DNA of 36,689 bases, from contig JBAZNJ010000003.1 in the NCBI GenBank assembly GCA_041649315.1, positions 1 through 36,689 on the forward strand, read 5' to 3'. Origin of the DNA: Patescibacteria group bacterium. GTDB taxonomy: Bacteria; Patescibacteriota; Patescibacteriia; Patescibacteriales; UBA12465. The notes beneath the pieces were generated by a model. It was not told where the DNA came from and ran no database searches. It saw only the letters and a program-made list of their open reading frames with translations. Positions within the stretch are counted from its first letter, which is position 1. Each line of letters begins with the position of its first letter. A program made the position numbers and the translations under genes. Positions 2,142 to 24,728 of the stretch are shown piece by piece.

Positions 2142-2172
2142 AATTTTATTGGAATTTTAGAGAATTTTAGCA

Positions 2173-2205
2173 AACAGCCCTGGTTTACCCAGGGCTGTTT
2201 TTTTG
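2173..2205 (+). terminator. Rho-independent terminator after the pilin gene
   Basis: AACAGCCCTGG-TTTA-CCCAGGGCTGTT stem-loop followed by a T7 run. Confidence 0.8.
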
Positions 2206-2317
2206 TTATAATATTAGCAGTGTTATTTTATTTCGTCTGTTTTTGAAATTAAAATTTACGAGGCCAGCGACGATTTAATAATTAGGATTAAAGCCTTTAA
2301 TTAGAAAACGATATTTT

Positions 2318-2974: not shown

Positions 2975-3073
2975 TTGCTCGGATTATGCTATAATTTAAG
3001 AAGTTATTATTGGGCCGGGGGCCGGTTTTTAAGTTTGGCGGCTTGGATTTAAAATAATTTGTTATTAAGGTTT

Positions 3074-4810: not shown

Positions 4811-4926
4811 TTAATTTGGGCAGCTTGGATCTTATAAGTGTCTGTTAAATAAAAAATTCGTTTAAGGGGCAAGGTATAAAAAATTACCTAGGTTAAAAAA
4901 TAAAAACAGAAAAAAATTTTATTTTT

Positions 4927-6147: not shown

Positions 6148-6198
6148 GATCGCTGAAGATATTCGTTTTTTTATTAATAATTATAAATTTCAAATTTC

Positions 6199-6690
6199 AT
6201 GAGGATACCTTCTGTTAATCGGAGTGGCTGGCAATCTAGTAACCGAAAGGCCTTTACTTTAGTAGAACTTCTCTTAGTGGTGGGTATTTTAGGAGTCATC
6301 GCTTCGGTCGTCCAGGGATTTTATGGCGATTTTGTCCAAGGAACGGTTTTAAGCGATAATTCTCAAAGCTTTATTTTTGATCTGCGTCAAGCTAGAAATA
6401 AAGCGATGGCCGGCGCGGCTGATCGTAATTGGGGGATTTTTATAGTTAACGATACAAATGATTATTATGAGATTTTTTCCAGTCCGACCGATTATTCTGA
6501 TTTAGAAAAGACGATTGAAGCGACGAATTATTTAAGAGATCAGGCCGGCTGGATTTTTCCGGTTGAAGGCGATAATCAGGAGATAGTTTTTAATAAGATC
6601 AGCGGCACAGCGTCTTCAACGGAAATTATTATCGGGATGAAGCGGTTATCGCGGACGATAAGGATTAATTCGCAGGGCTTAGTAGAATGA
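6199..6690 (+). CDS. Minor pilin, FimT/GspH-like
   Basis: RKA|FTLVELLLVVGILGVIA prepilin-like N-terminus (Ala at -1, Glu at +5). DLRQARNKAMAG resembles the GspH/FimT core. Confidence 0.75.
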   Translation: MRIPSVNRSGWQSSNRKAFTLVELLLVVGILGVIASVVQGFYGDFVQGTVLSDNSQSFIFDLRQARNKAMAGAADRNWGIFIVNDTNDYYEIFSSPTDYSDLEKTIEATNYLRDQAGWIFPVEGDNQEIVFNKISGTASSTEIIIGMKRLSRTIRINSQGLVE

Positions 6691-6712
6691 CTTGGAGCCA
6701 ATACTAATAATC

Positions 6713-7396
6713 ATGAGAAATAATCAGGTGCTAAAATTAAAGATAGAAGACGAGCCGTTTTTTAGCTTAGTTTTTAAGAAGGGATCTTTGCTTTTAGAGC
6801 TCTTGATCGTTATCGGCTTATTCGCGATTATCACTCCTTTAACCGCTCAGATTATCGTGAGCGGCCTTAATGTTAATAAGCATTCGTCCGAGCAGGCAAT
6901 CGTCTTTAATCTGGCCGAGGAAACGCTTAAGGCAGCGGAGAATATCAGTTTTGCTAGATGGCAGGATATTTATGATAAAGACAAAGGTGAGCCGAATTAT
7001 TATTATCCGGAAAAAGTTGCCGGTGCCTGGACGATTAAGGATGGGTCAGAAACGGTTGAGGTTAACGGTTTAGAATATTCCCGCTATTTTACGATTAACG
7101 ATGTTTGTCGCGATAATTCAACAAAAGAAATAATAAGCGGCGAGGGAATTCCTCCTTGCCCGAGCGGCGCGTTTCTTGACCCCTCGACGCAGGAAATAAG
7201 CGCGACAATCGCTTGGTCCGGCGGAACTACGACCAAGGAGATATATTTGACGCGTTGGCGCAACCGGATTTGTAAACAGAGCGATTGGGGGACGATTAAC
7301 GTCGGACCGAATGCTTGTCCGAGCAGTTTTTATGGCGAAGCGTTAGATATCGACGCGGCCTCGGTTCCCGGGAGTTTGATTTTGCTGGCGGAATAA
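6713..7396 (+). CDS. Minor pilin-like protein
   Basis: KKG|SLLLELLIVIGLFAII (G-1, E+5, Ser at +1). ATG at 6713 is preferred over the TTG at 6692. Confidence 0.7.
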   Translation: MRNNQVLKLKIEDEPFFSLVFKKGSLLLELLIVIGLFAIITPLTAQIIVSGLNVNKHSSEQAIVFNLAEETLKAAENISFARWQDIYDKDKGEPNYYYPEKVAGAWTIKDGSETVEVNGLEYSRYFTINDVCRDNSTKEIISGEGIPPCPSGAFLDPSTQEISATIAWSGGTTTKEIYLTRWRNRICKQSDWGTINVGPNACPSSFYGEALDIDAASVPGSLILLAE

Positions 7397-7463
7397 GCAA
7401 CAAATTTTGTAAAGGTTTATTTTCTTCCGGAACAGATAAAAAAATTTTGCGTAAATAAAAAAT

Positions 7464-10400: not shown

Positions 10401-11645
10401 AATTCCGGCATTGAGGCAAGCGTATTTACTAGTTGGTCGGATACGGCGATTGCGACAATCGTTCCGGATGGAACAGGGAGCGGCGATGTTTTTGTGACCG
10501 CGAACGCTTATCTTTCTAATGGAAAATATTTTTCAATTTTAAGTACTACGCCGGGTGAACCGACTAATTTAGATCAGTTTAGGGACGCACTTTTAACGGA
10601 AAGCATTACGGTTGGCGGGACGTCCAGCACTACGCCAATCTATCTGACTATGATTATGCAAGCTGGAGTGCCGGGCGGGACGCTTTATCCGCAAGTAGAA
10701 TATCAGCCGATCGGTACGCCTTTTGTTTGCGGTAGCGGTGCCTGTGCGACTGCTACTGAGGGCGGCGGCCAGGCCGGCCCCGGTCCGGTTAATTGTGCCC
10801 AGACCGCGAATAGCTGCGCGATTGAAATTTCCCCGGAAGATGATGTTTATCATTGGCAGGCGCGCATCCGCTATAATGTCGGCGGAATAGATTATTTTAG
10901 CAATTGGGCGCCTTTCGGAGGGAATGGGGAAGACGCGACTGATTTTAAGATTGATGCTAGCGCGCCTATGATTACTTTTCCGGGTGGCAATACTTGTTCC
11001 GAGGCCGTGACTTCGCTTTCAACTAACGGCGCGACCATCACCTGGTATTTGAATGAATTGGCTGATGGCCAGATCGAGTATAGTAAGAATAGCAGTTTGA
11101 CTGGCGCCGTTTTTTTCCCGATTCCATCCGGCGATCCGGCTTTTTCCCATGTTTATAATTTAAATAATTTAGATTCTAATACTACTTATTATTTCCGGGT
11201 GCTTTCCGCGGACGCCGAAGGGAATCAGGCGCTTAAGCCGGATAGCTCTCCGTATTGTTCGTTTACGACTTTGAATGTTGATCAGCCAGCGAAAACCGTA
11301 CGTTTCTATGTTGAGGGGCGCCCGGATGTTATCAGTGGCGGCGTGTCGACCAGTACGGCTTTTTCTGTCCATATCCCTGAGGAATCAATTTCTTTCAAAA
11401 GCTCTTTCTTAGAATTAACCGGCCTGTCTTTAGTGTCCGGTACCAATGAAATTTCTGTCCAGATAAACAGCCAGCCTTCATTAACTTATGATATCGCCGG
11501 ACCGAGCAATTTTAAGATTTTGTATAAGGTCGATCCGTCTAATATCAATATTTATCCGGCCGCCAACCTTTTAACCTTAAACCCCAGCCAGGATACTAAT
11601 ATCATTTCTGCTAAGTTTTTCACCACTTATTCTTTTGAACCGTAA
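7464..11645 (+). CDS. Large exported surface protein (beta-propeller-like repeats, IPT/TIG-like domains, FN3), candidate pilus-associated adhesin
   Basis: N-terminal signal anchor AVFILTFFLVFSAG. Recurring blade-like motif (IAAYQDTSGNLQV, IAYETASGDVVVAY, LAYESLSGDLMITW, DLQAAYWNGSSW). IPT-like VISGYGFG, ITLNGTRFG and ITVSGNHF. FN3-like TITWYLNELADGQIEYSKN...TTYYFRVLSADAEGN. Confidence 0.8.
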   Translation: MRKENFKFLINSHKNLSKIFKKSAVFILTFFLVFSAGSFPCPPDFLTGEGTNNLGINNLKIKKARAAASEDGMIFYGISGNTTPQARIYDAALGAFDSPASPTVAGGQPVITRIKASPNKNEYIAAYQDTSGNLQVMCYDGTAWTNEWSVAVAPGGTPTTQRFDIAYETASGDVVVAYSRNTNATNALAYRTKSGADGCGTGNWSTAANFPTTSTITTGTVQWVKAAEDGRSGSNLGAWIWADSNRDLGGTIWSGTAFGNLKNLETNLEVVSTGQDVDSFDLAYESLSGDLMITWGSGGSSSTNGAWYNMCTGGTAACSWGASRTAFPTLADDATVLDLSADPNSDMMAFASIGNGGNDLQAAYWNGSSWTGYAQIDASCETPAAGMKTVQTGWLTNGATVRWFLIYDDGSGTGLSWFATTPGGTLTTSQGKQSDWTASPSINDIRGRYDLDTNPFNLSEVILTLSDSTNSIFAKRLVMDSVGNLTWSNVDGAASLGTKYSHPRQGFSFAYRRSLPAVLVLSASAGAKIMTINSGAVGQFVHDSACTSDGTCAAFKMMASGGSVTITSVKVSEIGSAAANTDLSNPVLFYDTDDNYANGVAGTFGSAVNFAADQTATFTNAGLSIPSGATYYFYVGFDALNGTNYPAGGQGIDFSIVSSSDIITSGATLVSGAPATLVFAGSTCASTAHTCVRPQITSYTNTTETTLDYAADCTDCGARIGPGAPYRQTIVISGYGFGTDPGLGSRSTSNNKVEVAGTGTKIVSDDGTADTNVSAWSNTAITIRTDTMVAGDDDASWGDNFGGLAALGITAGGQSAVAGLNFYLFPQVTSLTVPTPVANAAREYDAGDTDGVITLNGTRFGSSATGGWVRIFDCDETTCASPSGSAAINSWSNTAVEVQVPAVIADDVYTGSISLQQGSPAFNKNHVYTTTGFRILPRITELISSSGIVGDAITVSGNHFCQNNGICPIAFDANNKVTFNSGIEASVFTSWSDTAIATIVPDGTGSGDVFVTANAYLSNGKYFSILSTTPGEPTNLDQFRDALLTESITVGGTSSTTPIYLTMIMQAGVPGGTLYPQVEYQPIGTPFVCGSGACATATEGGGQAGPGPVNCAQTANSCAIEISPEDDVYHWQARIRYNVGGIDYFSNWAPFGGNGEDATDFKIDASAPMITFPGGNTCSEAVTSLSTNGATITWYLNELADGQIEYSKNSSLTGAVFFPIPSGDPAFSHVYNLNNLDSNTTYYFRVLSADAEGNQALKPDSSPYCSFTTLNVDQPAKTVRFYVEGRPDVISGGVSTSTAFSVHIPEESISFKSSFLELTGLSLVSGTNEISVQINSQPSLTYDIAGPSNFKILYKVDPSNINIYPAANLLTLNPSQDTNIISAKFFTTYSFEP

Positions 11646-11735
11646 AAGGGCTGGACAATAAAAGGGCGGTTGCTAATGCCGTTTTTTGTCCTATTTTCCG
11701 TGTTTAGGTAAAACATTAAATAGCAGTATAAATTT

Positions 11736-12437
11736 ATGGCTAAAAAAAGAAAAAATAAAAAAATTTATTTAATTGCCGGCGGCTTGGCCTTGGTAGCAAT
11801 TTTATTGTTGATGCTTTTTATTTTTAGGCCATTTTCTGATTCTAAAATAAATCGGCCGCAAAAAGGATTCAAAGGTTTAGTTATTGAAGATAATTTAGTA
11901 CTTCCGGATACGAGCCAAATTAGCGTTAATGACGGAGAATTTATTAGCCCGGGTGAATACGGCGTCAAGCTCCGGCCGCAGTCTGAACAAGAAGAAGTTT
12001 TTATTCCGCGCGCCGTTTTAACTTTAAAACAGGCCTATCAGTTAAGCGAAGCGGCGGCTCGAGAATGGTCGCCGGATGCCGCTTTGATTTTTATTAAATC
12101 ATTGGGCGCTTTAGGGCTAGACGGGAAAGCAAGCGCCTGGCAATTAGTTTTTGGTTCGGCCGGAAAAAAACAAGGCTATGAAATAATAATTTCTGTCGAT
12201 GAGATAATTAGCCGAGAAGAAATTGAAACGAGCGAGCCCGGCTTCGCTTTACCGGAGAATTGGTATGATTCCGGCGAAGCCATTAATTCTCTACGGAATT
12301 TAGTTCAATTTGATCGCGATTTTTTATCAGCAATCAGTTTTTATTATAGTCCGGCCGCCAAGCTTTGGGCCTATGGCCTCTCAACGACCCGGGAAGGCGA
12401 ACCGGCTCCGCGGACAACGGCGATGTGGGTTCGCTGA
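11736..12437 (+). CDS. Membrane-anchored hypothetical protein in the T4P operon
   Basis: KKRKNKK followed by the TM segment IYLIAGGLALVAILLLMLFIF. No recognisable domain. Confidence 0.6.
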   Translation: MAKKRKNKKIYLIAGGLALVAILLLMLFIFRPFSDSKINRPQKGFKGLVIEDNLVLPDTSQISVNDGEFISPGEYGVKLRPQSEQEEVFIPRAVLTLKQAYQLSEAAAREWSPDAALIFIKSLGALGLDGKASAWQLVFGSAGKKQGYEIIISVDEIISREEIETSEPGFALPENWYDSGEAINSLRNLVQFDRDFLSAISFYYSPAAKLWAYGLSTTREGEPAPRTTAMWVR

Positions 12438-12568
12438 TTTTAAAAATATAGGCATAAGGGGGACGAATTAATAAACTGAAGGGCGAATTAATAAATATGA
12501 TTTAGTTTCGCGGATTTGCCGCGCGGTTTAAGTAGCTTAAGAAGACGTTAGGCACTAGAATAAAAGGC

Positions 12569-13852
12569 ATGAAAAAAATAAACTATAAAAAATTTTTATT
12601 TTTTGTTGGCGCATTGGCGTTTTTATTTTTTTGTTCGCCAAAGATTACTTTAGCCGCCGAGCAAATCAAGACCACCGATTATTTTGTCGGCGCTTATCCT
12701 AATCAAGTAAGCGGCGCGGTTGATTTACCCTTTGCTCTTTATATCGGCGATAATCTTGAGGGCGTGAGCGACCCAATCAAATCCGCTTATTTTACGGTGA
12801 GCGGCGTTTATACCGGTTCCGGCTCTTTGTCGCTAAGCTTAAATTCCGACGCCAGCACGACTAAGGCCTTTTTTTTGCCGGCCGTGGCATCTCCGACTAA
12901 CTTTGAAATTATTTATCAGGATGAAACCGAAATTATTAATCCGACTAGCGCCGGCACTTATAATTATTCTTTGGATGTCGCACCGGCCGGCGTTACACTT
13001 TCCGGCTTAGGGGCGAAATTGGAAGCGACTTATCAATTCGTGCCGACGGCTTGTCCGGATGGCGTTCCGGCCAATGAAAAAATAAAGTCCACCGATTATT
13101 TTGTCGGTGCTTATCCTAACCAGGTAAGCGGCGCGGTTGATTTGCCCTTTGCTCTTTATATCGGCGATAATCTTGAGGGCGTGAGCGACCCAATCAAATC
13201 CGCTTATTTTACGGTGAGCGGCGTTTATACCGGCTCCGGCTCTTTGTCTCTAGGTTTAAACGACAACGCCTCTACAACCAAAACTTTTCTCCTTCCGGCC
13301 GTTGTGTCTCCGACTAATTTTGAGATTATTTATCAGGATGATATGGGAACCATTAGTCCGCTTAGCGCTGGTACTTATAATTATTCTTTAGATATCGCTC
13401 CGGCCGGTGTTACGCTTTCCGGCTTGGGGGCGAAGTTGACGGTTTCCCATCGTTATAAGCCGCCGATTTGCGGTTTAAGCTATCCTCCTTATGGCGATTT
13501 AATTTCCACGATTTTTGATTCAACCGGTTCCGCGGACGGGCCGGCATATAATTCAATTATGTGGCGCGGCGCTTTAGGTGGCGAAGAATTTGATATCGGG
13601 GAGGTTCTATTCCAGATTGCCGCCGCCGATGACACGATCGGACCTTGGGATTATATCGGACCGAATTGTATTGGCGGGCCTTATGATTGGTTTGAATTGC
13701 CGCCGGAGACCGCAGCGGAAATCGGGTGCTATTCGCTTTTGAATAATAAAAGATATTTCCGCTATAAAGCCCGTCTTTGCTCCACTGATTGCTCAGCTTC
13801 CGGGCCGACTACGCCGCAGGTGGACGAAGTTATTATTAATTGGAGTCCTTAG
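12569..13852 (+). CDS. Secreted protein with an internal 139-aa tandem duplication
   Basis: Sec signal peptide with probable cleavage at TLA|AEQ. Two copies of IK(T/S)TDYFVGAYPNQVSGAVDLPFALYIGDNLEGVSDPIKSAYFTVSGVYTGSGSLSL... and a Cys-containing C-terminal domain. Confidence 0.8.
   Translation: MKKINYKKFLFFVGALAFLFFCSPKITLAAEQIKTTDYFVGAYPNQVSGAVDLPFALYIGDNLEGVSDPIKSAYFTVSGVYTGSGSLSLSLNSDASTTKAFFLPAVASPTNFEIIYQDETEIINPTSAGTYNYSLDVAPAGVTLSGLGAKLEATYQFVPTACPDGVPANEKIKSTDYFVGAYPNQVSGAVDLPFALYIGDNLEGVSDPIKSAYFTVSGVYTGSGSLSLGLNDNASTTKTFLLPAVVSPTNFEIIYQDDMGTISPLSAGTYNYSLDIAPAGVTLSGLGAKLTVSHRYKPPICGLSYPPYGDLISTIFDSTGSADGPAYNSIMWRGALGGEEFDIGEVLFQIAAADDTIGPWDYIGPNCIGGPYDWFELPPETAAEIGCYSLLNNKRYFRYKARLCSTDCSASGPTTPQVDEVIINWSP
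12664..13497 (+). repeat. Two-copy in-frame tandem duplication, period 417 nt
   Basis: 12664-13080 aligns with 13081-13497. An 89-nt block is identical (12728-12816 = 13145-13233), and the distal parts are clearly more diverged. Confidence 0.9.
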
Positions 13853-13856
13853 GTTT

Positions 13857-14396
13857 ATGATTTTAAGAAAGAATAATAAAAAAAGAAAATTCAAGACCGG
13901 GTTTACTTTAATGGAGCTTTTGATTTATATGGCGGTTTTGTCGATCATGAGCGTTGTTGTGTCCGATTCTTTTTTAACCTTGAATAAAGGCCGGGATAAT
14001 ATTGAAATAAAAAGCGAATTAAATTCTAATTTGTCTTTTGTTTTAGAGAAAGTTAAATACGATATCAGCGTGGCTGAGGGCCTTAATTTTCCAGCCGTGG
14101 CCGGAGAGAGCGCAGCCGCGCTTGATTTGAGTATTGGCGGAGAAAATATTTATTATTCCCTTGATCAAGGCCGTTTATTGCGGCAGGCCGGTGCGGCCGA
14201 GCCGGAATTTATCAGTCCGGAAAACTTAAACATCAGTAATTTAAGCTTCACCCGGCTGGAAAACGTTAATCCATTTTTAGGAAGCAAGAAAGTGAGCTTG
14301 GAGATTAATATTTCCGGCGCCTATAACAGCGGCGATCCGGGCCGGCAATATGAACAAGATCGGAAAATAATGGTTAATCTTAACGCGGATTTTTAA
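13857..14396 (+). CDS. Minor pilin / pseudopilin (PilW/GspJ-like)
   Basis: KTG|FTLMELLIYMAVLSIMS is a canonical prepilin motif. Starts 4 nt after the preceding stop codon. Confidence 0.8.
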   Translation: MILRKNNKKRKFKTGFTLMELLIYMAVLSIMSVVVSDSFLTLNKGRDNIEIKSELNSNLSFVLEKVKYDISVAEGLNFPAVAGESAAALDLSIGGENIYYSLDQGRLLRQAGAAEPEFISPENLNISNLSFTRLENVNPFLGSKKVSLEINISGAYNSGDPGRQYEQDRKIMVNLNADF

Positions 14397-14498
14397 TAGG
14401 ATTATGGCCAGGGTTTTCCCGATCATTTAGCGGCCGATTTCTAATGATTCAGAAACTATCATTAAACTATTTTATAGAAAATTTTTAAGGTGTTTATT

Positions 14499-14915
14499 AT
14501 GAAAATATTTAAGAAAGAACAAGCGGGTTTAGCCTCTTTACCAACTGTTTTAGTTTTAATCGCCTTGATAATTTCTGTCGGCGTTTTTGTCTCCGCGGTG
14601 AGCGTTTCTGATAATTTATCAGTGAGCGGCGCGGGCGCTTCCGACCGGGCTTTGAATTACGCCCGTTCCGGCGCGCGCGATGCTTTAGAAAGAATTGCCC
14701 GTAATAAAGATTATGTCGGAGATTACGACATCGCGGCGGTTCCAGACGGTTGTTTAGAGCCATTTTCCGGATGCGTTTCAGTGAGTGTCGCGGCCGGAAA
14801 TCCGAAAATGATCAGCGCGGCCGGACGGGCCGGTGATTTTATAAGAAAAATCCAGGTGGCGGCCACGCTGGATGCGGATGGTTTAATTCTTGATTATGAT
14901 TGGACGGAGCAGTAA
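14499..14915 (+). CDS. PilX-like pilus assembly protein
   Basis: N-terminal hydrophobic helix GLASLPTVLVLIALIISVGVFV without Glu+5, as in PilX/GspK-type proteins. ATG at 14499 is preferred over the GTG at 14490. Confidence 0.6.
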   Translation: MKIFKKEQAGLASLPTVLVLIALIISVGVFVSAVSVSDNLSVSGAGASDRALNYARSGARDALERIARNKDYVGDYDIAAVPDGCLEPFSGCVSVSVAAGNPKMISAAGRAGDFIRKIQVAATLDADGLILDYDWTEQ

Positions 14916-15010
14916 GGATTTAGCAAGAGAGGGCGTTTAGAATAAAAAGATTGATTAGAAACTTGCCTGATAATTCATCGCGGAAGATTTATCTTAGGAA
15001 GATTCGATAT

Positions 15011-15736
15011 TTATTTATTACCAATAACAATCTGCAAATCATAACGAATATCATTCCCCAGGGTCTCAACGATAAAGTCATACTTTTCATCGACTAATCT
15101 GCTTATCTCCAAGAGTTCGCTGGCGTTCCGGTCTAAGCCGGATTTTATTTTTATCAGCGTTGCTTCTTCGCTTTTCGCTTGGTTGCCAATGTTTTCTACC
15201 GGGTAGCCGGCTTGGTCCAGGATTTTTTTCATTTCTCCAGCTAAACCGGCGCGGTTCGTTGAATTAAGTACGGAGATTTTAAGGTTTAAAGGCGCCTTAG
15301 CTTTAATCGATGCTGAATCATCCTGAACGGGCGCCGAATCATTGGCCGCGGGAATATTCTCCCCTTGTTCGTTGTTAGTTCCGAGTTCGTCCCCCGTTTC
15401 TAATCGGGTTGTCTCATCTTCATTAACGATTATGCCTAACTCATCCTCCTCCGATTTAATTTCCTTGTTTTCACTAATTAGCTCATCAGAAACGGGTTTA
15501 GTTAAATTTAATTTTTTCGCTAATAATAAATAATTATCAAGATCAAGTTGTAGTATTTTTTCGGGAGCGACCTGTTTTTCAGCCGGTTCTAAGGCCGAAC
15601 TAAGCGCTTGGTTTATAAATTTAATCATTAAGATAAAGGCAATAATTATCCCGATAAGATAAAGAGCAAAAATTAAAGGGTAGGTTAATTTTTCTATCTT
15701 TAAAGTTTTTGTTTTTTTTATTTTATTCTTGAGCAT
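15011..15736 (-). CDS. Membrane-anchored LytR_C-domain protein
   Basis: TM segment YPLIFALYLIGIIIAFILMI, an acidic linker, and a C-terminal LKISVLNSTNRAGLAGEMKKILDQAGYPVENIGN typical of the LytR_C fold. Overlaps the upstream pilO-like gene by 14 nt. Confidence 0.65.
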   Translation of the reverse strand: MLKNKIKKTKTLKIEKLTYPLIFALYLIGIIIAFILMIKFINQALSSALEPAEKQVAPEKILQLDLDNYLLLAKKLNLTKPVSDELISENKEIKSEEDELGIIVNEDETTRLETGDELGTNNEQGENIPAANDSAPVQDDSASIKAKAPLNLKISVLNSTNRAGLAGEMKKILDQAGYPVENIGNQAKSEEATLIKIKSGLDRNASELLEISRLVDEKYDFIVETLGNDIRYDLQIVIGNK

Positions 15737-16277
15737 AAAGCCGTCCGCTAAAGTTTATCGTTGAATTATTATTCCAGCCATTAGTGCCATTTATGTTTAT
15801 CGTCTGGATCGAGGAAAAATAAGTCAGTTTTTCGAGGTCTTTAAGATAAGCGACTAGGATATCAATATTAGCGTCCCTTAAGGATGCGCTGAAGTTTACT
15901 GAAGACAGGGAAATCGGTCCAACCGGCGAAACAAGAGGCGCAGGCTGGCTGAAGTTAAGCTCGGATTTAAGGTTGTATTTCTTAGCCAAACTGTCCAAGG
16001 CCTCGACAAAAGGCAGGACATTATAGACCGAAGGTAGGGCGGCGTAAATCTTAGCTTCATAATCAGAATCAATTTTTTTGAAATCGGCCTGGATTTGGCG
16101 GGTGGTTTCTTCCCGATTACGCAGAAGATAATTTATTTCTTTCTTTTCTCGGGTAGCTAAATTCAGTTGTTTGATTTTTTTAACCAAAAAATAATCAAGC
16201 GTTCCGGCAACGCTAATAATTACTAGAGCGACTAGTATTTTAATGCTTAGTTTTAAAATGAATTTATTCTTTAGCAT
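15723..16277 (-). CDS. PilO-like pilus assembly protein
   Basis: Single N-terminal TM, a coiled-coil segment and an alpha/beta C-terminus. Directly downstream of the pilM-N fusion. ATG at 16277 is preferred, because the track's TTG at 16316 lies inside a conserved intercistronic motif. Confidence 0.55.
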   Translation of the reverse strand: MLKNKFILKLSIKILVALVIISVAGTLDYFLVKKIKQLNLATREKKEINYLLRNREETTRQIQADFKKIDSDYEAKIYAALPSVYNVLPFVEALDSLAKKYNLKSELNFSQPAPLVSPVGPISLSSVNFSASLRDANIDILVAYLKDLEKLTYFSSIQTININGTNGWNNNSTINFSGRLYAQE

Positions 16278-16307
16278 TTTGATTTGGTTTTGATAAGACC
16301 ATTGCTG

Positions 16308-16344
16308 AATACTCAAAAGAGCATTTGGCGAAAGCCCAATTATT
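16308..16344 (-). repeat. Intercistronic RNA-motif copy 1
   Basis: Sense strand reads TAATTGGGCTTTCGCCAAATGCTCTTTTGAGTATT. It is 33/37 identical to 24751..24787 in the same orientation and starts at the pilM-N stop codon. Confidence 0.7.
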
Positions 16345-17776
16345 CAATATTTTTTTCTAAGATTTCCGGATCGGTAATTTTAAAAGTTAAAGAAAAAGGA
16401 ATATCCGCTTTCTTCCCGAGGTTGTCTAGGGGCAGAGTCACTTCCGTAAAAAGCTCAGAGCCGGCGAAAGAATCTCTTAGGGAATTAATCCGATCCCGGT
16501 CAACCGCGATTCCGGATAAAGAAAAAGTCGCTTCAGCGCCCGGCAAGGATAAGGTATTTACGGTAATGCCGGAAACAATTCGGTTTTTTATCTCTTCAAC
16601 AATCGGGCTCCAGGCAGTTTCCTGACGGGCTAAGGCATTGCTTTGGCCGACCAAACGGTTAAATGATTCCGCTCTAGTTTCAATTAAGATAGCATTATCT
16701 GCACCCGGCAAAGCGGACATGAAAGCGATCTCCTCGTTAAAATTATTTTGCATCATAACGAGAATAAACCAGGTTGCGCTTAGGGCCGCGCTAAAAAATA
16801 AAGATAGGGCGAAGCTGGCGCCGATTAAGAAGCCGGCCGTGGCGTTGGCCTTAGCTTGGCGAAAAGCCTCTTCTGTCCCGACTTTCATTAAGCTAATCAG
16901 TTCGTCGTCTTTCCGCGGGACTAAGCCGCGCCAAGCCGCGCCCAAAGACGTTAAGGACTCAGGTTTTATTTTTATTTTTTTACCTAATTCCTCCCGGAAT
17001 TCCGGATTAAGCGGTTTTAAGGGCAGGTCTTTTATTTCTTTAGAGTCAAAGGATCCGATAAGAACCAGACCGGAAATTTTCCGATCAAACCATTCCTGAT
17101 GTTTTATTATCTTATCAATTTCTTGTTTTAAGCCGGATTTTATTTTTTCGTTTGGCAAGGACTGGGAAAAAATGAGCAGATTATTTTTTATAACAGAAAA
17201 AGTCGTAGTTGAATGGTCTTTTTTTAAGATTAAGGATGTTTCGCCCGGTTTTTGCTTAAGAGCCCGGGCTAAGCTTAAAGAATGGCTTTCAATAGCGACG
17301 ATTTTCAGACCGGCCTTTTTTAGAGTGTTTAAAAAATTTTCTATCAAAGAGATCGGCGCGCTGGCCAATAAGAAGTTTTTATTAGCCTTATCTGCCTCCG
17401 CTGTTTCCCAATCGCAATAGATTTCCGAGCGTTGGCGCGGCAATTGGAAATCGGCAATTAATTTCATTGATTCACTTATTTTCTCATCCGGCATTACATT
17501 CGGGAAAGAATAGATTTTAGAGAAGATTTTGTCGGCGGGTAGGGAAACAACTAAATATTTCAGCCGGCGGCCGGAAAGCTTTTTTATTTTCGCGATAAAT
17601 TCACTCTCTTTTTTTATTAAACCATCATTTATTACATCGCTCGAAAGAGTCTCTTCAAGGAGCGTTTTAATTTCCAAAGACGATTTACCTCTTTTTAATA
17701 AGGTAAGCCGGATGTGGGAATCAGATATTTCCAAGCCGCCAATCGGCTCTTCATTGATGAGGCGCAGTAGATTCAT
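16340..17776 (-). CDS. pilM: PilM-PilN fusion protein (actin-like ATPase fold, TM, PilN-like domain)
   Basis: N-terminus IGGLEISDSHIRLTLL and about 300 aa of PilM-like sequence. Then the TM segment GFLIGASFALSLFFSAALSATWFILVMM and a PilN-size periplasmic domain. Confidence 0.8.
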   Translation of the reverse strand: MNLLRLINEEPIGGLEISDSHIRLTLLKRGKSSLEIKTLLEETLSSDVINDGLIKKESEFIAKIKKLSGRRLKYLVVSLPADKIFSKIYSFPNVMPDEKISESMKLIADFQLPRQRSEIYCDWETAEADKANKNFLLASAPISLIENFLNTLKKAGLKIVAIESHSLSLARALKQKPGETSLILKKDHSTTTFSVIKNNLLIFSQSLPNEKIKSGLKQEIDKIIKHQEWFDRKISGLVLIGSFDSKEIKDLPLKPLNPEFREELGKKIKIKPESLTSLGAAWRGLVPRKDDELISLMKVGTEEAFRQAKANATAGFLIGASFALSLFFSAALSATWFILVMMQNNFNEEIAFMSALPGADNAILIETRAESFNRLVGQSNALARQETAWSPIVEEIKNRIVSGITVNTLSLPGAEATFSLSGIAVDRDRINSLRDSFAGSELFTEVTLPLDNLGKKADIPFSLTFKITDPEILEKNIE

Positions 17777-21017: not shown

Positions 21018-21743
21018 ATGAAAAACTCTAAATTTATTTTTATTTTAATTTCTGGTCTTTTGCTAATTGCCGGCTTTTTAATTTTTGGCCTATTCTTGCA
21101 AGCGATCCATTCCCGGGCCGAGAGCTACGATTTATTATTAGTCAGCGGTTCGGCCAAAGCGCGTATTATTTCTAATAATGCCGAATTGAAAATTTTCATT
21201 TCCCGTTTAGCGCCGCTTGACGATTTGACTAATGCTTATGGATATTTTGAATATGACCTGGATTGGCTAAAAAAAACTTTAAAGGAAAATGGTCTTGATA
21301 TTAGTCGTTTAGAAATTAGCCCAGTTATTATTGAGGGGAAAAAGGAAGAAGATGCGAGTCGGGAAGCGATAAATATCCGACTAACAAGAACGGTAACTAT
21401 CAACGGAGAAACTGATAAAATTACTAAAGTTTCTCAAGCAGTTTCTTCGTTTAATTCCGCGGCAGTAACTTTTTCTGTTCAGTCTTTGGAATATTATAAT
21501 TCCGATTACCCGGATTTGTATGAGCCGCTTTTAAAAGAAGCTTTTCAAGACGCTAAAGCTCAAGCTTACCAAAAAGCGGCCGACTTAGGGCGTCATTTGG
21601 GTGAATTTAAAAGAGTGGTTAGTGGTTCGGAAAGGATTTTACCGGCCGATTCTCCGGATATTTTTTATGATAGATATTATGATACTTCCAGTATTGAAAA
21701 AGATATGGTGATTAAGGTCGTATTACTTTTCGGTTTTAAATAA
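21018..21743 (+). CDS. SIMPL-domain (DUF541, BP26/YggE-like) protein
   Basis: N-terminal TM or signal segment. Layout and the stretch EAFQDAKAQAYQKAADLGRHLGEFKRV resemble SIMPL-family proteins. Confidence 0.55.
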   Translation: MKNSKFIFILISGLLLIAGFLIFGLFLQAIHSRAESYDLLLVSGSAKARIISNNAELKIFISRLAPLDDLTNAYGYFEYDLDWLKKTLKENGLDISRLEISPVIIEGKKEEDASREAINIRLTRTVTINGETDKITKVSQAVSSFNSAAVTFSVQSLEYYNSDYPDLYEPLLKEAFQDAKAQAYQKAADLGRHLGEFKRVVSGSERILPADSPDIFYDRYYDTSSIEKDMVIKVVLLFGFK

Positions 21744-21775
21744 CCAATTAAAATAACTATCCGCCAGTTGGCGGA

Positions 21776-21801
21776 CTCCGCACATCGCTCCGGCTTTCGA
21801 A
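21776..21801 (+). repeat. Left copy of the 26-bp direct repeat flanking the R-M cassette
   Basis: CTCCGCACATCGCTCCGGCTTTCGAA is identical to 24296..24321. Confidence 0.9.
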
Positions 21802-22037
21802 GCTCTTGTACGGAGCAATACTAATGAAAACAACCTAAAATTGAAATGTATCTCGTTTAGTAGACACAGGCAAAAAACAACTAAGCAATTTTTAAAAGAT
21901 GATTTCGGTATTGGACGGAGTTTTTGGATTCATAGCTATTTATTAGGTAGTCCGTAAATTTCTACCAGTTCTTATTTTTAACATAATTTTAGGTAAAATA
22001 TACTATATTAATAGTACTTTAAAGACCATTTTACAAG

Positions 22038-22066
22038 TTGTTTCCTCTTATAAAAAATGATATAAT
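22038..22066 (+). promoter_or_regulatory. Candidate promoter of the R-M operon
   Basis: TTGTTT, a 17-nt spacer with extended TG, then TATAAT (22061-22066), 33 nt upstream of the ATG. Confidence 0.4.
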
Positions 22067-22098
22067 GGTTCATATAATAAACTCCTAATAATCTCCGC

Positions 22099-23235
22099 AT
22101 GAAAAAACAGCTCGGACAATTTTTTACCAAGCAATCCGATTATATTCTTCAGGGGTTTGAAGAATATGTTAAAGGCAAAAACGTTATTGATCCTTTTGCC
22201 GGGAATCGAGATTTAATGGATTGGTCTAAAAAAAATAGTTGTAAATCAATTAAGGGTTTTGATATTGATAAAAATTATATCGACAATAAACTTGTTTTTT
22301 TAAATGATTCCATTAATAATCCTCGGAAATACAAGTTTATTTGCACTAATCCTCCTTATTTGCATAAAAATAAGGCGGATATTAAGACTAAAAATCAATT
22401 TTTTTCCGGCCAAAACGCCATTTTTGAAGATTTATATCAAGTTTCCATAATATCAATGCTTGATAGCGACGAAGGCATTATTATTGTTCCGCTTAATTTT
22501 CTTAGTGCTGAAAATTCAAAAAAAACAAGAAATCTATTTTTTGAAAAATTTAAAATAGTAAAATTAAATATTTTTTCTGAACAGGTTTTTGAAGATACTA
22601 CTTATAACGTTATCGCTTTTTATTATAAAAAGAAAAATAAACCTACTGAGAAAGATATTATTAACGCAATCATATTTCCGGAAAAGAAAAAAATAAATTT
22701 TACCGTTGAAAAAAAGTATGATTGGCAACTAGGTGGAGAATTTATTAAAAAGGTCAATTATATACAAAATTATTTAGGAGTTTTCAGGTTAACTGAAAGT
22801 TTTTTGATACCTGGTAATCAAAAAGTTGAAATTGCTATTCAGAATATTAAGGATAAACAGATTTTTAAAGTTCCTAAAGATGTAAAAGAAATACTAGAAA
22901 AAAACATTCTCATGTTAAGAGCTATCGATAGTAAAAATGGTAAAAAGATTCAACTGGAAGATATAAGAAAATATCGAATACTTGGATTAGCTGGAAAAGT
23001 TTCTTCTAGGAATATGGCTCATTTAATATTCAAAGAAAATTTAACCCCGGAGCAACAGCAAAAACTTTTAAAAGAGTTTAACGAGGAATTAAATAAAAAT
23101 AGAGAAAAATATTTTTCTTATTTTTTAACAAATTTCCGAGATAATAACCGTAAAAGAATTTCTTTTGATTTTACCTATAAATTACTCAATTATATATATA
23201 AGAAAAACTATGCCAAACAGCCTTCATTATTTTAA
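22099..23235 (+). CDS. Type II N6-adenine DNA methyltransferase (gamma-class motif order)
   Basis: Motif I-like VIDPFAGNRDL lies upstream of motif IV FICTNPPYL. Paired with a PD-(D/E)xK gene. Confidence 0.8.
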   Translation: MKKQLGQFFTKQSDYILQGFEEYVKGKNVIDPFAGNRDLMDWSKKNSCKSIKGFDIDKNYIDNKLVFLNDSINNPRKYKFICTNPPYLHKNKADIKTKNQFFSGQNAIFEDLYQVSIISMLDSDEGIIIVPLNFLSAENSKKTRNLFFEKFKIVKLNIFSEQVFEDTTYNVIAFYYKKKNKPTEKDIINAIIFPEKKKINFTVEKKYDWQLGGEFIKKVNYIQNYLGVFRLTESFLIPGNQKVEIAIQNIKDKQIFKVPKDVKEILEKNILMLRAIDSKNGKKIQLEDIRKYRILGLAGKVSSRNMAHLIFKENLTPEQQQKLLKEFNEELNKNREKYFSYFLTNFRDNNRKRISFDFTYKLLNYIYKKNYAKQPSLF

Positions 23236-24130
23236 GGTTTCACAGGAAAACCCGGAAGATCAGTTAGATATTAATTATTTCATTCTTGAAAAAGATCCTA
23301 AAATTAAAGAATATATAGCACACGTTAAAAATATCAAAGAAACATTGATAACTATTAAGAAATTAAAAGAAAATAAGGAAAGCCAAGAAACAGTAGAAAA
23401 ATATTATAAAAAATTGTTTAATGATTTTAATGATTATTCTAATTGTTCTGAGCTGGGTTGTTTTGTAAACGCCTGTGATACGACGAGAGATTTAATAAAA
23501 AACGATTTTAATTCTTTTAAAAAGATAACGGATTTATTTATTAAAAAGAGAGTTATAGATGATAAAGTTCCGGAAAATTGGATCCAAGCGATTATTGATA
23601 CAAATGCTTCGAGAAAAAAGGGCAAACTTGGAGAAAATAAATTACTTGCTTTTCTAACCGATACTTTCGGATACAAACCCGTAAAAAATTGGGAAGATTT
23701 TTATAAAACAAAGAAGTGCGTGGTTAGTTTCTCAAAAGATATTTTCCATAACGACGAAGTAATAAAAAATCTTGGAATTAACTTAAAAACAAAAAATCAA
23801 GGAAAAATGTTAGATTTGATTATTAAACATGATAAGAAAATTTTTATTTTAGAAGCAAAACATTTAAACACCGGCGGTGGCGAACAAAATAAACAAATTG
23901 ATGAATTGATTAAGATATTAGAATTAAAAGAAAAGAAAAAAGATATTTACTATATATCTTTTTTGGATGGAACTTATTCAAATAAATTAATTAGTGAAAA
24001 AATAGAGAAAAAATCTAAAAAATTATTTACCCAAAGAAGCCAGATCGAAAAATATTTAAAAAGCCAGGCAGCAAAAAATTACTGGGTTAATACGGCCGGA
24101 TTTATTCAGCTCTTTCTAGATCTGGGTTAG
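23210..24130 (+). CDS. Type II restriction endonuclease (PD-(D/E)xK fold)
   Basis: MLDLIIKHDKKIFILEAKH gives a D-x13-E-x-K catalytic motif. ATG at 23210 overlaps the methylase 3' end by 26 nt. The track's start at 23165 is a TTG extension. Confidence 0.7.
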   Translation: MPNSLHYFKVSQENPEDQLDINYFILEKDPKIKEYIAHVKNIKETLITIKKLKENKESQETVEKYYKKLFNDFNDYSNCSELGCFVNACDTTRDLIKNDFNSFKKITDLFIKKRVIDDKVPENWIQAIIDTNASRKKGKLGENKLLAFLTDTFGYKPVKNWEDFYKTKKCVVSFSKDIFHNDEVIKNLGINLKTKNQGKMLDLIIKHDKKIFILEAKHLNTGGGEQNKQIDELIKILELKEKKKDIYYISFLDGTYSNKLISEKIEKKSKKLFTQRSQIEKYLKSQAAKNYWVNTAGFIQLFLDLG

Positions 24131-24154
24131 TTCAATATTAATACTGGCATAAAC

Positions 24155-24186
24155 AACAATCACCCAAATAAATTTGGGTGATTGTT
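24155..24186. terminator. 12-bp hairpin, paralogue of the tRNA-Ala terminator
   Basis: AACAATCACCCA-AATAAATT-TGGGTGATTGTT. Located after the REase stop codon and immediately beside the tRNA 3'-end fragment. Confidence 0.6.
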
Positions 24187-24189
24187 TGT

Positions 24190-24210
24190 TAGTGGACCCT
24201 AAGGGATTCG
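24190..24210 (-). repeat. Duplicated 3' end of tRNA-Ala (att-like fragment)
   Basis: The 21-nt TAGTGGACCCTAAGGGATTCG is identical to 24381..24401. It covers part of the T-loop, the T-stem, the acceptor 3' strand and 3 trailing nt. Confidence 0.9.
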
Positions 24211-24295
24211 GTCACGGTCGCTAAGCCTCGCTTGTTTGCTTCGCAAACTGCGCTCGCTAAGCGCCCCGACCCGGCCTCGCGGTGCGTTCGCTTCG

Positions 24296-24321
24296 CTCCG
24301 CACATCGCTCCGGCTTTCGAA
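24296..24321 (+). repeat. Right copy of the 26-bp direct repeat flanking the R-M cassette
   Basis: Identical to 21776..21801. Followed by TCCCTTAGG, which makes TTCGAATCCCTTAGG, an inverted copy of the tRNA-Ala T-arm/acceptor sequence. Confidence 0.9.
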
Positions 24322-24346
24322 TCCCTTAGGCGGATCAGCAACAAAT

Positions 24347-24378
24347 AAAAACAACCCAAAGCAGTTTGGGTTGTTTTT
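24347..24378 (-). terminator. Terminator hairpin downstream of tRNA-Ala
   Basis: AAAAACAACCCA-AAGCAGT-TGGGTTGTTTTT, with a U-run on the minus-strand transcript. Confidence 0.7.
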
Positions 24379-24383
24379 ATTAG

Positions 24384-24457
24384 TGGACCCTAAGGGATTC
24401 GAACCCTTGACCCCCTGCTTGCAAAGCAGGTGCTCTAGCCAGCTGAGCTAAGGGCCC
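24384..24457 (-). tRNA. tRNA-Ala (anticodon UGC)
   Basis: Hand-folded cloverleaf: GGGCCCT/TA/GCTC-AGCTGGCTA-GAGC/A/CCTGC-TTTGCAA-GCAGG/GGGTC/AAGGG-TTCGAAT-CCCTT/AGGGTCC/A. G3:U70 identity pair is present. CCA is not encoded (CTA follows). Confidence 0.93.
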
Positions 24458-24482
24458 AACCATTATTCAATTATACTTAAAA

Positions 24483-24728
24483 TTAATTATACTTCAAGAG
24501 AGGGCCGGTGAGCCAGCGGGCGAAATCGCCGCCACTGCCCGTCAAGCTTACGATGCCGATGAACAGAAAAATTATTCCGATAAGCTTATAACCGAGACGG
24601 GAGCCGCCCTCAGTTCCGAGTTTTGCTTCAAACCAGGCAATCCGGCCGAAATTGCTTAAGAACCATTCGGTTTTTAAAATTAATAATGTTCCGGCCCCGA
24701 TTAGTAAAATTCCGACGATAATCGACAT
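24483..24728 (-). CDS. Small membrane protein, unknown function
   Basis: 81 aa with an N-terminal and a later hydrophobic helix. Lies downstream of the M23 gene and after the intercistronic motif. Confidence 0.55.
   Translation of the reverse strand: MSIIVGILLIGAGTLLILKTEWFLSNFGRIAWFEAKLGTEGGSRLGYKLIGIIFLFIGIVSLTGSGGDFARWLTGPLLKYN

What the first reader, a model, noticed from the sequence alone, without database searches (positions are those of the whole stretch)
21776..24321. Type II R-M cassette bracketed by identical 26-bp direct repeats beside tRNA-Ala, with no integrase
CTCCGCACATCGCTCCGGCTTTCGAA occurs at 21776..21801 and 24296..24321 and encloses only the methylase/endonuclease pair, about 2.5 kb of the most AT-rich-looking coding DNA in the window. 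Weaker similarity continues to the right of both copies, with AAAACAACC[T/C]AAA at offsets of 26 and 27 nt. In each copy the repeat start can pair with a downstream pentamer (CTCCG/CGGAG on the left, TCCGC/GCGGA on the right). No integrase, transposase or recombinase ORF lies between 19 and 24.5 kb. The picture is an R-M unit mobilised by, or fixed through, recombination at a short repeat next to a tRNA integration hotspot.
Basis: partly seen in the sequence, partly recalled or inferred. Interest (0 to 1): 0.7.

Follow-up and report, generated by a model that had tools for sequence, protein, structure and literature searches.

The report
R-M cassette in tRNA-Ala island stack
The two identical 26-base repeats are real, but they are the most conserved stretch of two copies of a widespread GC-rich folded element that marks gene-cassette junctions stacked behind tRNA genes in Patescibacteria; the restriction-modification pair is ordinary mobile cargo there, and the repeats are not the sites at which it was inserted.

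Summary
Observation confirmed. The 26-mer occurs exactly twice (21776, 24296), the enclosed DNA is 25% GC against about 42% outside, tRNA-Ala lies alongside, and the window has no recombinase gene.

Interpretation only partly holds. The 26-mer is not cassette-specific. It occurs in 20 other contigs, always inside a conserved GC-rich three-way-junction element of about 135 nt. The closing stem of that element pairs a 5' arm with a duplicated tRNA 3' fragment. The right copy is intact. The left copy is a truncated relic of another subfamily.

The same R-M block (21972-24137) is found in a close relative without the left repeat, and beside tRNA-Glu in other Patescibacteria.

Cassette boundaries are marked by a terminator hairpin, a 7-nt tRNA-end core (TTAGTGG) and a roughly 27-codon tail. 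That tail reads in frame with large serine recombinase genes that run into the tRNA. The window keeps a decayed copy of this boundary at 21857-21935.

Best reading: a recombinase-less R-M cassette in a stack of serine-recombinase integrations at the tRNA-Ala 3' end. The folded GC-rich elements are in no RNA family library, and their function is unknown.

The parts
21018..21743 (+). SIMPL-domain gene, the left neighbour. In relative L005 it is followed directly by a short GC-rich remnant, a hairpin and tRNA-Ala.
   Evidence: Pfam SIMPL; L005 sequence
21760..21819 (-). Truncated relic of a GC-rich three-way-junction element, subfamily B. It keeps the tip hairpin TCCGCCAGTTGGCGGA (21760-21775), the left 26-mer (21776-21801), and a degenerate arm plus linker. 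Its pairing partners are missing, so it cannot form the family fold.
   Evidence: Alignment with L022 and L014; no covariance-model hit
21820..21856 (.). Degenerate terminator hairpin. Only the left arm, ACTAATGAAAACAACCTAAA, is recognisable.
   Evidence: (I15)
21857..21863 (+). Decayed tRNA-end core TTAGTAG (family form TTAGTGG). Proposed distal crossover site of the cassette.
21864..21935 (+). Decayed 'P-arm', a remnant of the roughly 27-codon serine-recombinase tail (..RYWTEFLDS*). It carries internal stops and an 11-nt deletion.
   Evidence: tblastn and alignment with L015, L025, L026 and L016
21972..24137 (+). R-M block shared at 82-89% identity with eight other loci. The left breakpoint is the same in seven of them (22028 in L028). 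It holds the promoter region, M (22099-23235) and R (23210-24130, overlapping M by 26 nt).
24150..24191 (.). Terminator hairpin T2, which works in both directions.
   Evidence: I17, D1
24189..24210 (-). Exact 22-nt copy of the tRNA-Ala 3' end (core TTAGTGG + ACCCTAAGGGATTCG). It forms the 3' strand of the element's closing stem and is a candidate secondary attB.
   Evidence: D1; in L013 a recombinase element sits at the equivalent fragment
24198..24330 (-). Intact GC-rich three-way-junction element, subfamily A. The 13-bp closing stem pairs 24198-24210 with 24318-24330, and the right 26-mer (24296-24321) lies inside it.
   Evidence: Fold z = -4.3; consensus structure and covariation; covariance model 165.7 bits
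24331..24379 (.). Linker plus terminator hairpin T1 (arms 24341-24360 and 24365-24384).
   Evidence: I11
24383..24457 (-). tRNA-Ala(UGC). Its 3' end (24380-24401 including the trailer) is the primary attachment site. Its promoter-like site is at 24497-24470.

Best explanation
The tRNA-Ala 3' end in this Patescibacteria lineage is an attachment site where mobile gene cassettes pile up one behind another.

Shown. Across relatives, each cassette boundary consists of a terminator hairpin, a 7-nt core identical to the last bases of the tRNA plus trailer (TTAGTGG for Ala, TAGTAGTC for Glu, CTCTCCGC for Ser), and a conserved tail of about 27 codons. Where a recombinase is present, it is a roughly 500-aa large serine recombinase whose ORF reads through a hairpin and the core into the antisense tRNA, in the same frame as those tails.

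Inferred. attP therefore lies inside the 3' end of the recombinase gene. Integration splits the tail off to the far end of the insert. Recombinase-less cassettes are either fossils or are moved in trans.

The window's R-M pair is such a cassette. Its distal boundary is the decayed TTAGTAG plus tail remnant at 21857-21935. Its proximal boundary is T2 plus TTAGTGG at 24150-24195.

The two 26-mers are not these boundaries. They are the best-conserved stretch of two copies of a separate, non-coding, GC-rich three-way-junction element. That element repeatedly occupies the tRNA-proximal end of cassettes, the position a recombinase gene would otherwise hold. It carries its own copy of the tRNA 3' end. 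One copy (A) is intact, between the R-M cassette and the tRNA. The other (B) is a truncated older relic next to SIMPL.

The R-M genes are a gamma-class N6-adenine methyltransferase and a PD-ExK endonuclease. They presumably act as a defence and addiction module that helps the insert persist (inference).

The function of the folded element is not established. My best guess is a structured RNA or DNA module that travels with cassettes and supplies a spare attB. In L013 a recombinase-bearing element lies next to the equivalent tRNA fragment.
For: - The 26-mer lies inside a conserved element in 20 other contigs.
- The element folds as a three-way junction: 98.5% of cells are paired, 7 pairs show compensatory change, 0 of 500 shuffles reach this, and slid controls give about 32%.
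- The element core is 77-97% identical, while the adjacent M23 peptidase is only 52-55% identical.
- The left copy aligns with subfamily B and with the hairpin / TTAGTGG / tail module of L015 and L025.
- The R-M block has fixed ends at 21972 and about 24137 in eight other loci. L016 lacks the left repeat, and L028-L034 carry the block at tRNA-Glu.
- Large serine recombinases abut tRNA-Glu, tRNA-Lys and a tRNA-Ser fragment.
- The tail peptide recurs at 17 boundaries, always directly after the core and in the recombinase frame.
- Recombinase C-terminal remnants lie next to the tRNA in L028 and L032.
- Other cargo found at these sites in relatives: Drt2, MTase+ResIII, Fic, HerA, an SMC-like ATPase, Abi, patatin and PLD. 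Drt2, the MTase+ResIII pair and Abi are recognised defence genes.
- Element-bracketed cassettes recur in L019, L026 and L028.
Against: - No recombinase, and no excised or empty form of exactly this cassette, was seen.
- The window's distal boundary is decayed. The tail match alone has E about 1 and is convincing only by position and by the nucleotide alignment.
- The hairpins next to the R-M block differ between the window and L016, so the whole cassette is not simply co-inherited.
- Recombinase catalysis at the core is inferred from sequence architecture only.
- The junction between the GC-rich element and the tRNA fragment lies in the T-loop, not at the core, so a second, unidentified process must create or spread those elements.
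- All element copies were retrieved through the exact 26-mer. That makes the 26-mer's invariance partly circular and the sample small (10 distinct full copies).
Confidence: 0.68

Rival explanations
1. One reading: the 26-bp direct repeats are the att sites or a target duplication produced when the R-M unit itself inserted. The mobile unit would then be exactly 21776/21802 to 24295/24321.
For: The 26-nt identity is exact, similarity decays outward, the interior is compositionally foreign, and a tRNA is nearby.
Against: The 26-mer is shared by 20 unrelated contigs, with or without cargo. The two copies belong to different subfamilies, and family homology extends on both sides of the left copy. 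L016 has the R-M block without the left copy. R-M homology ends at 21972. L005, which has an empty-like site, has no 26-mer.
Confidence: 0.04
2. Homologous-recombination exchange. The conserved GC-rich elements and the tRNA act as portable homology, so that cassettes such as R-M are swapped between strains by transformation and double crossover. No site-specific recombinase would be involved in this particular acquisition.
For: Perfectly conserved 26-32-nt stretches flank cassettes in the window, L019, L026 and L028. The R-M block is 89% identical between the window and L016, while the adjacent 319 nt are 99.7% identical. The window encodes a type IV pilus cluster, which could serve DNA uptake. 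No recombinase is present.
Against: The R-M homology block does not extend into the elements. Its ends are the same in tRNA-Glu loci that lack the element. The left copy is too short and decayed to have served recently. Boundary modules carry recombinase-tail remnants, which points to site-specific events.
Confidence: 0.15
3. The GC-rich element is a resident host non-coding RNA gene downstream of tRNA-Ala, transcribed in the tRNA sense. It was duplicated locally, and the R-M genes landed between the two copies by chance. This matches Furuta's class 'chance insertion between repeated sequences'.
For: There is covariation and strong conservation relative to flanking proteins. The tRNA-sense strand folds better, at -54.5 against -42.9 kcal/mol, with five G-U against two on the other strand. 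The element sits between housekeeping genes in several loci.
Against: No promoter-like site was found for it. tRNA fragments within one locus differ from the resident tRNA (L021, L026), which suggests import rather than local duplication. It is absent in relative L005. It occurs at tRNA-Ser too, and a second unrelated core (type 2) has the same architecture at tRNA-Ala and tRNA-Glu.
Confidence: 0.12

Closest known systems
Tandem accretion of integrative elements at tRNA genes (tycheposon islands of Prochlorococcus; CIME/ICE accretion)
   Same: Successive integrations at one tRNA push older inserts outward. Partial tRNA copies lie between inserts. Remnants are degenerate and cargo-only units lack a recombinase. 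A minority of tycheposons use large serine recombinases (10.1101/2020.12.28.424599).
   Different: Here the units are very small (0.5-3 kb, often one or two genes) and the recombinase is a large serine type. attP appears to lie inside the recombinase gene's 3' end. Many junctions carry a conserved GC-rich folded module closed by the tRNA fragment.
SCC elements moved by Ccr large serine recombinases at the 3' end of rlmH (orfX)
   Same: Large serine recombinases are involved; the weak best NCBIfam hits are to CcrA/CcrC. Integration is at the 3' end of a conserved gene. Composite arrays include cassettes without their own recombinase, bounded by short direct repeats (own knowledge).
   Different: The target is a tRNA 3' end plus its terminator. 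The recombinases are only distantly related, well below the family cut-offs. The GC-rich modules have no SCC counterpart.
Repeat-flanked R-M units (Furuta, Abe and Kobayashi 2010, PMC2853133)
   Same: R-M genes are flanked by direct repeats near a tRNA. The paper separates three classes: site-specific recombination, insertion with long target duplication, and chance insertion between repeated sequences.
   Different: This case is not a long target duplication. The repeats are two members of a pre-existing element family, and the actual junctions lie elsewhere.
Integron gene cassettes with attC sites
   Same: Arrays of promoter-poor small cassettes are separated by conserved, folded, imperfectly palindromic non-coding sites, with cassettes captured at one fixed site. 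By analogy, chromosomal attC sites of one array are likewise highly similar to each other (own knowledge).
   Different: No IntI tyrosine recombinase is present. The R'/R'' GTTRRRY boxes are absent. The fold is a three-way junction. The fixed site is a tRNA 3' end. The associated recombinase is of the serine type.
Integrase genes that span attP (Mx8 intP, SSV1 int)
   Same: Integration alters or splits the recombinase ORF (own knowledge).
   Different: Those are tyrosine integrases. Here about 27 codons of a serine recombinase are displaced, and this is inferred from reading-frame continuity only.

Membership tests
Type II restriction-modification system | DNA methyltransferase with SAM-binding and catalytic motifs and the matching fold | tested here: met
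   Motifs DPFAGNRDL and TNPPY. The AlphaFold N-domain is confident, and the top Foldseek hits are CamA, M.BseCI and M.TaqI at E 1e-9 to 1e-6. Homologs carry PF07669 and PF02384. The window protein itself gets no Pfam hit.
Type II restriction-modification system | Adjacent endonuclease with a nuclease catalytic motif | tested here: met
   Pfam Tsp45I at 29.5 bits, above the 25-bit cut-off, with weaker DpnII and BsuBI/PstI matches. LDL...ILEAK fits PD-ExK. The M-R pair is conserved in eight other loci.
Type II restriction-modification system | Matching recognition sequence and demonstrated activity | not testable with these tools
   No REBASE access and no assay; the specificity is unknown.
R-M insertion with long target duplication | The repeat is single-copy at the empty site of relatives and unique to the locus | tested here: not met
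   L005 has no 26-mer between SIMPL and tRNA-Ala. The repeat is found in 20 other contigs. The two copies belong to different subfamilies.
tRNA-integrating island moved by a site-specific recombinase | Recombinase gene within the island, next to the tRNA | tested here: not met
   Absent from the window. Present in related islands L013, L025, L029-31, L035 and L038, and as remnants in L028 and L032.
tRNA-integrating island moved by a site-specific recombinase | Direct repeats of the tRNA 3' end at both island ends | tested here: inconclusive
   TTAGTGG at 24189-24195 and 24380-24386; a degenerate TTAGTAG at 21857-21863; a 22-nt exact tRNA fragment at 24189-24210. The distal site is decayed.
tRNA-integrating island moved by a site-specific recombinase | Foreign composition and variable presence among relatives | tested here: met
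   GC 0.25 against 0.42. Absent in L005, L009 and L011; present in L016; found at tRNA-Glu elsewhere.
Integron cassette / attC | IntI integrase and attC with R''/R' (RYYYAAC/GTTRRRY) boxes | tested here: not met
   No tyrosine recombinase appears among the families matched by two or more of the 86 neighbouring ORFs; single-member families were not listed. The arms CCTAAGGGATTCG / CGAATCCCTTAGG lack the boxes, by direct reading.
Any described RNA family (Rfam 15) | Covariance-model match | tested here: not met
   Only tRNA is found at gathering score, and nothing over 24196-24333 at E<=10.
MITE / insertion sequence | Constant terminal inverted repeats, target-site duplication, dispersed copies | tested here: not met
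   The arms co-vary with the attached tRNA fragment (Ala, Ser, Glu and variants). Copies lie only at tRNA 3' ends, one or two per locus.

The most novel reading that the evidence does not exclude
Patescibacteria may have an integron-like gene-capture system built on a large serine recombinase, with the tRNA 3' end as the fixed capture site. In this reading the GC-rich folded modules (at least two unrelated cores, each closed by a stem between a 5' arm and a carried copy of the tRNA 3' end) are a new class of structured RNA or ssDNA. They would act as portable attB landing pads, or otherwise direct or insulate cassette capture. That would allow recombinase-less cassettes such as this R-M pair to be inserted and excised in trans.
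Probability: 0.2. Interest if true: 0.8.

Novelty: new variant of a known kind. Interest (0 to 1): 0.55.

Why it matters
Patescibacteria have tiny genomes, and few of their mobile elements have been described. A tRNA-anchored stack of small cassettes driven by a serine recombinase would explain how they exchange defence genes (R-M, Drt2, Abi). The conserved folded modules at the junctions are candidates for a new structured nucleic-acid class with a role in recombination. For the finding as written, the practical lesson is that an exact short repeat bracketing an island can be two members of an older repeat family rather than the scar of that island's insertion.

Tried and rejected
- Rfam at permissive thresholds found no family for the element.
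- IMG/VR, phage and plasmid collections hold no copy.
- The element is not the Drt2 non-coding RNA. That reverse transcriptase occurs in only 1 of about 15 loci, lies in a separate cassette, and has its own promoter-proximal leader upstream.
- The long arm of the element is not a decayed tRNA-Ala body. The alignment score is no better than shuffles, with 342 of 2000 shuffles reaching it.
- Group II intron domains V/VI, a hammerhead, an integron attC and an IS200/IS605-type end were each considered and rejected by reading the motifs and the architecture.
- The exact-protein look-up of the 81-aa ORF next to the tRNA returned nothing.
- Contexts of recombinase homologs (L035-L038) confirmed the recombinase-hairpin-tRNA layout but added no copy of the element.
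- No sigma-70-like promoter was found for the element on either strand.
Full report
**1. Observation**

The 26-mer CTCCGCACATCGCTCCGGCTTTCGAA occurs exactly at 21776-21801 and 24296-24321 and nowhere else in the window, even with three mismatches. None is expected by chance. Similarity continues to the right of both copies (55 nt at 78%). The motif AAAACAACC[T/C]AAA is one arm of a terminator-type hairpin.

GC falls to 0.24-0.29 between 22000 and 24000, against roughly 0.35-0.5 elsewhere. tRNA-Ala(UGC) is at 24383-24457 on the minus strand.

The two enclosed ORFs form a genuine R-M pair:
- The 378-aa protein has DPFAGNRDL and TNPPY motifs. Its confidently modelled N-domain matches the N6-adenine DNA methyltransferases CamA, M.BseCI and M.TaqI.
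- The 306-aa protein passes the Pfam Tsp45I threshold and has an LDL...ILEAK nuclease motif.

No recombinase is present at 19-24.5 kb or anywhere in the 36.7-kb window. The rest of the window encodes a type IV pilus cluster, Ddl, a cell-wall hydrolase, SIMPL, an M23 peptidase, a two-component system and YebC. So the description is correct.

**2.

Three features were missed.
- There is an exact 22-nt copy of the tRNA-Ala 3' end plus trailer (TTAGTGGACCCTAAGGGATTCG) at 24189-24210. Like the tRNA itself, it is followed in the tRNA's direction of transcription by a terminator hairpin (T2 compared with T1; 64 nt at 70%).
- Between this fragment and T1 lies a 64-69% GC segment. Its ends, CCTAAGGGATTCG (24198-24210) and CGAATCCCTTAGG (24318-24330), are perfect inverted repeats. 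The right 26-mer lies inside this segment.
- The segment folds far better than shuffles (z = -4.3).

**3. The 26-mer belongs to a widespread element**

Exact-match scans found the 26-mer in 3 GTDB genomes and 17 JGI metagenome contigs. In all of them it occupies the same position in a conserved element.

Read on the window's plus strand, the layout is: an antisense tRNA 3' fragment, a GC-rich core (GTCACGGTCGCTAAG ... GCGCCCCGACCCGGCCTCGCGGTGCGTTCG ... 26-mer), the inverted arm, a 10-16-nt linker, a terminator hairpin, and then usually an intact tRNA. That tRNA is tRNA-Ala(UGC) in most loci and tRNA-Ser(GGA) in another group.

Ten distinct full copies align with variation confined to two hairpin tips, which change length with compensatory substitutions. 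The consensus structure is a three-way junction of 41 pairs:
- 98.5% of cells are paired.
- 7 pairs show double changes.
- 0 of 500 column shuffles reach this.
- Slid controls give about 32%.

The tRNA-sense strand gives the lower consensus energy (-54.5 against -42.9 kcal/mol) and turns more mismatches into G-U pairs.

The core is 77-97% identical between loci whose neighbouring M23 peptidases are only 52-55% identical. Invariance of the 26-mer itself is partly circular, because it was the search key. A one-mismatch variant exists in L019, and the 30-mer in the middle of the core is invariant without having been selected for.

Nothing in Rfam 15 matches. No copy is found in the IMG/VR, phage or plasmid collections.

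**4. The two window copies are different members**

Left of the 26-mer, the right copy reads ...GGTGCGTTCGCTTCG (subfamily A, as in L015 and L025). The left copy reads TCCGCCAGTTGGCGGA, the extended tip hairpin of subfamily B (as in L013, L014, L018 and L022). The left copy starts at that tip, about 16 nt after the SIMPL stop. It therefore lacks all the pairing partners of the 26-mer and is a truncated relic; it does not score with the covariance model.

To its right come a degenerate hairpin, then TTAGTAG (21857-21863), and then about 70 nt that align with a module shared by L015, L025, L026 and L016.

**5. The R-M block has its own, different boundaries**

L016 is 90-99.7% identical to the window on both sides. 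It carries the same R-M pair at 89% identity but has neither SIMPL nor the left repeat, and it has an extra GC-rich unit on the tRNA side.

Methyltransferase homologs of 88-94% identity lie in seven further loci (L028-L034). Nucleotide homology to the window starts at 21972 in six of them (22028 in L028) and ends at or just past the R stop (about 24121-24141; fragmentary near the end of R in L028). Those loci are islands beside tRNA-Glu with Abi, Fic, patatin, PLD or rolling-circle Rep cargo, and they have no copy of the element.

**6. What marks cassette boundaries**

L029-31 carry a 507-aa large serine recombinase (Resolvase + Recombinase + zinc-ribbon domains). Its ORF runs through a hairpin and the tRNA-end core into antisense tRNA-Glu. 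The same layout is seen at tRNA-Lys (L038), at a gapped tRNA (L035), and at the tRNA-Ser fragment of an element copy (L013). L025, a tRNA-Ala-type island, has a recombinase 71% identical to the tRNA-Glu one. L028 and L032 keep only its C-terminal remnant next to the tRNA.

Directly after the core, at the distal end of inserts, there is a conserved open tail: LVV(L/V)K..IS.N.D.II.EI..W.E.L*. It is in the same frame as the recombinase ORF across the core. This tail recurs at 17 boundaries, for example five times in L028 and three times each in L029/30 and L032.

The simplest reading is an inference: attP lies inside the 3' end of the recombinase gene, and integration at the core moves the tail to the far end of the insert. 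On this reading, repeated integrations at the tRNA stack cassettes, and many of them have lost the recombinase or never had one. L019 shows two single-gene cassettes of the tRNA-Ser type, each ending in ...GTCCCACC|CTCTCCGC plus a hairpin.

Cargo elsewhere includes Drt2, an N6/N4 methyltransferase with a ResIII helicase, an SMC-like ATPase, HerA and Fic. Several of these are recognised defence genes, so this is at least partly a defence-island hotspot.

**7. Reading the window**

In the direction of tRNA transcription (right to left on the plus strand) the order is:
1. tRNA-Ala
2. core, then T1
3. linker
4. element A with its tRNA fragment and core
5. T2
6. R, then M
7. decayed tail
8. decayed core TTAGTAG
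9. degenerate hairpin
10. linker
11. truncated element B
12. SIMPL

The R-M cassette is thus bounded by core-plus-hairpin sites at 24150-24195 and 21820-21863, and the 26-mers lie outside these on both sides.

Relative L005 has SIMPL, a short remnant of a second module type, a hairpin and tRNA-Ala directly. That fits everything in between being inserted in the window.

Whether the cassette entered at the tRNA itself or at the tRNA fragment of element A cannot be decided. The hairpins next to the R-M block differ between the window and L016, so flanks have been reshuffled.

**8. The GC-rich modules**

A second, unrelated core ('type 2') has the same architecture in L016, L022, L026, L027 and L028, with a fragment in L005. 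It consists of a 5' arm, about 140 nt of GC-rich sequence, and a tRNA 3' fragment.

Its closing stem co-varies: AAGGG/CCCUU in most copies, AUCGG/CCGAU in L026, and AGGGG/CCCCU at tRNA-Glu. 15 of 28 consensus pairs show double changes.

Fragments within one locus can differ from the resident tRNA (L021, L026). This suggests the module travels together with its fragment.

Immediately upstream of each hairpin-core-tRNA there is either a recombinase 3' end, its remnant, or one of these modules. At internal boundaries a module is present in 7 of 17 cases.

The junction between module and fragment lies in the T-loop, not at the core. No promoter was found for the module, and no protein gene is consistently linked to it. 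Its function is open. A portable secondary attB is the most concrete idea, because in L013 a recombinase-bearing element sits at the equivalent fragment.

**9. Comparison and verdict**

The R-M pair is an ordinary type II system. Its methyltransferase family is very common in Patescibacteria, with 1316 homologs.

The locus as a whole resembles stacked integrations at tRNAs, as in tycheposon islands, and SCC arrays built by Ccr serine recombinases. It does not fit Furuta's 'long target duplication' class. It differs from known examples in three ways: the small cassette size, the recombinase gene that spans attP, and the folded GC-rich junction modules.

I rate the finding as confirmed in observation, partly supported in interpretation, and moderately interesting. 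The interest lies mainly in the cassette system and the undescribed structured modules that the repeat led to.

Noticed in passing
L025:172-1632 (minus) and leader 1633-1925: A 486-aa reverse transcriptase scores as Drt2 (NCBIfam NF041746, 416 bits, above the cut-off). A sigma-70-like promoter and a roughly 250-nt leader lie upstream, probably its non-coding RNA. It sits in the same island as an N6/N4 methyltransferase and a ResIII helicase.
   Followed up: partly
L016:4261-4429; L022:272-441; L026:2017-2180; L028:2226-2392, 3989-4154, 7147-7315: A second family of GC-rich folded modules ('type 2', about 165 nt) has the same layout: a 5' arm paired to a tRNA 3' fragment. It occurs at both tRNA-Ala and tRNA-Glu, with strong covariation.
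   Followed up: partly
L030:8700-10223 with tRNA-Glu at 10185-10257; L013:127-1665: Large serine recombinase ORFs end inside antisense tRNA sequence. A conserved tail of about 27 codons, in the same frame, sits at the far end of inserts. This implies that attP lies within the recombinase gene.
   Followed up: partly
L030:7349-7442: A long, near-perfect GC-rich hairpin lies just upstream of a REP_ORF2-G2P rolling-circle Rep gene in the island. It may be a replication origin.
   Followed up: no
L008, L009 (GTDB records CAYUEO010000035.1, CAYYDR010000001.1): These records are titled 'uncultured Gammaproteobacteria bacterium'. However, L009 shares gene order with this Patescibacteria-like window over at least 8 genes, and L008 shares the tRNA-Ala, element and Ddl stretch. 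The label looks wrong.
   Followed up: no
L029-L034, about 4460-4897 (minus): In other genomes a conserved 145-aa gene is transcribed divergently from M. The window and L016 lack it, and homology starts at 21972, within its first codons. It could be a controller or accessory gene of the R-M unit.
   Followed up: no
window 10688-10847 and 12333-12447: Sharp GC spikes (0.72 and 0.69) occur inside the 1393-aa ORF of the pilus cluster and at the end of ORF 11736-12437. They were not examined.
   Followed up: no
window 21972-24141 compared with 24182-24500 (against L016): The R-M block is 89% identical to L016, while the adjacent element/tRNA stretch is 99.7% identical and the M23 peptidase is 99.5% identical at the protein level. 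This uneven divergence suggests allelic exchange of the R-M block.
   Followed up: partly
window 1452-17776: A large type IV pilus gene cluster is present: PilB-like T2SSE, PilC-like T2SSF, several N-methyl pilins and PilM/N. This fits DNA uptake or host attachment in Patescibacteria.
   Followed up: no
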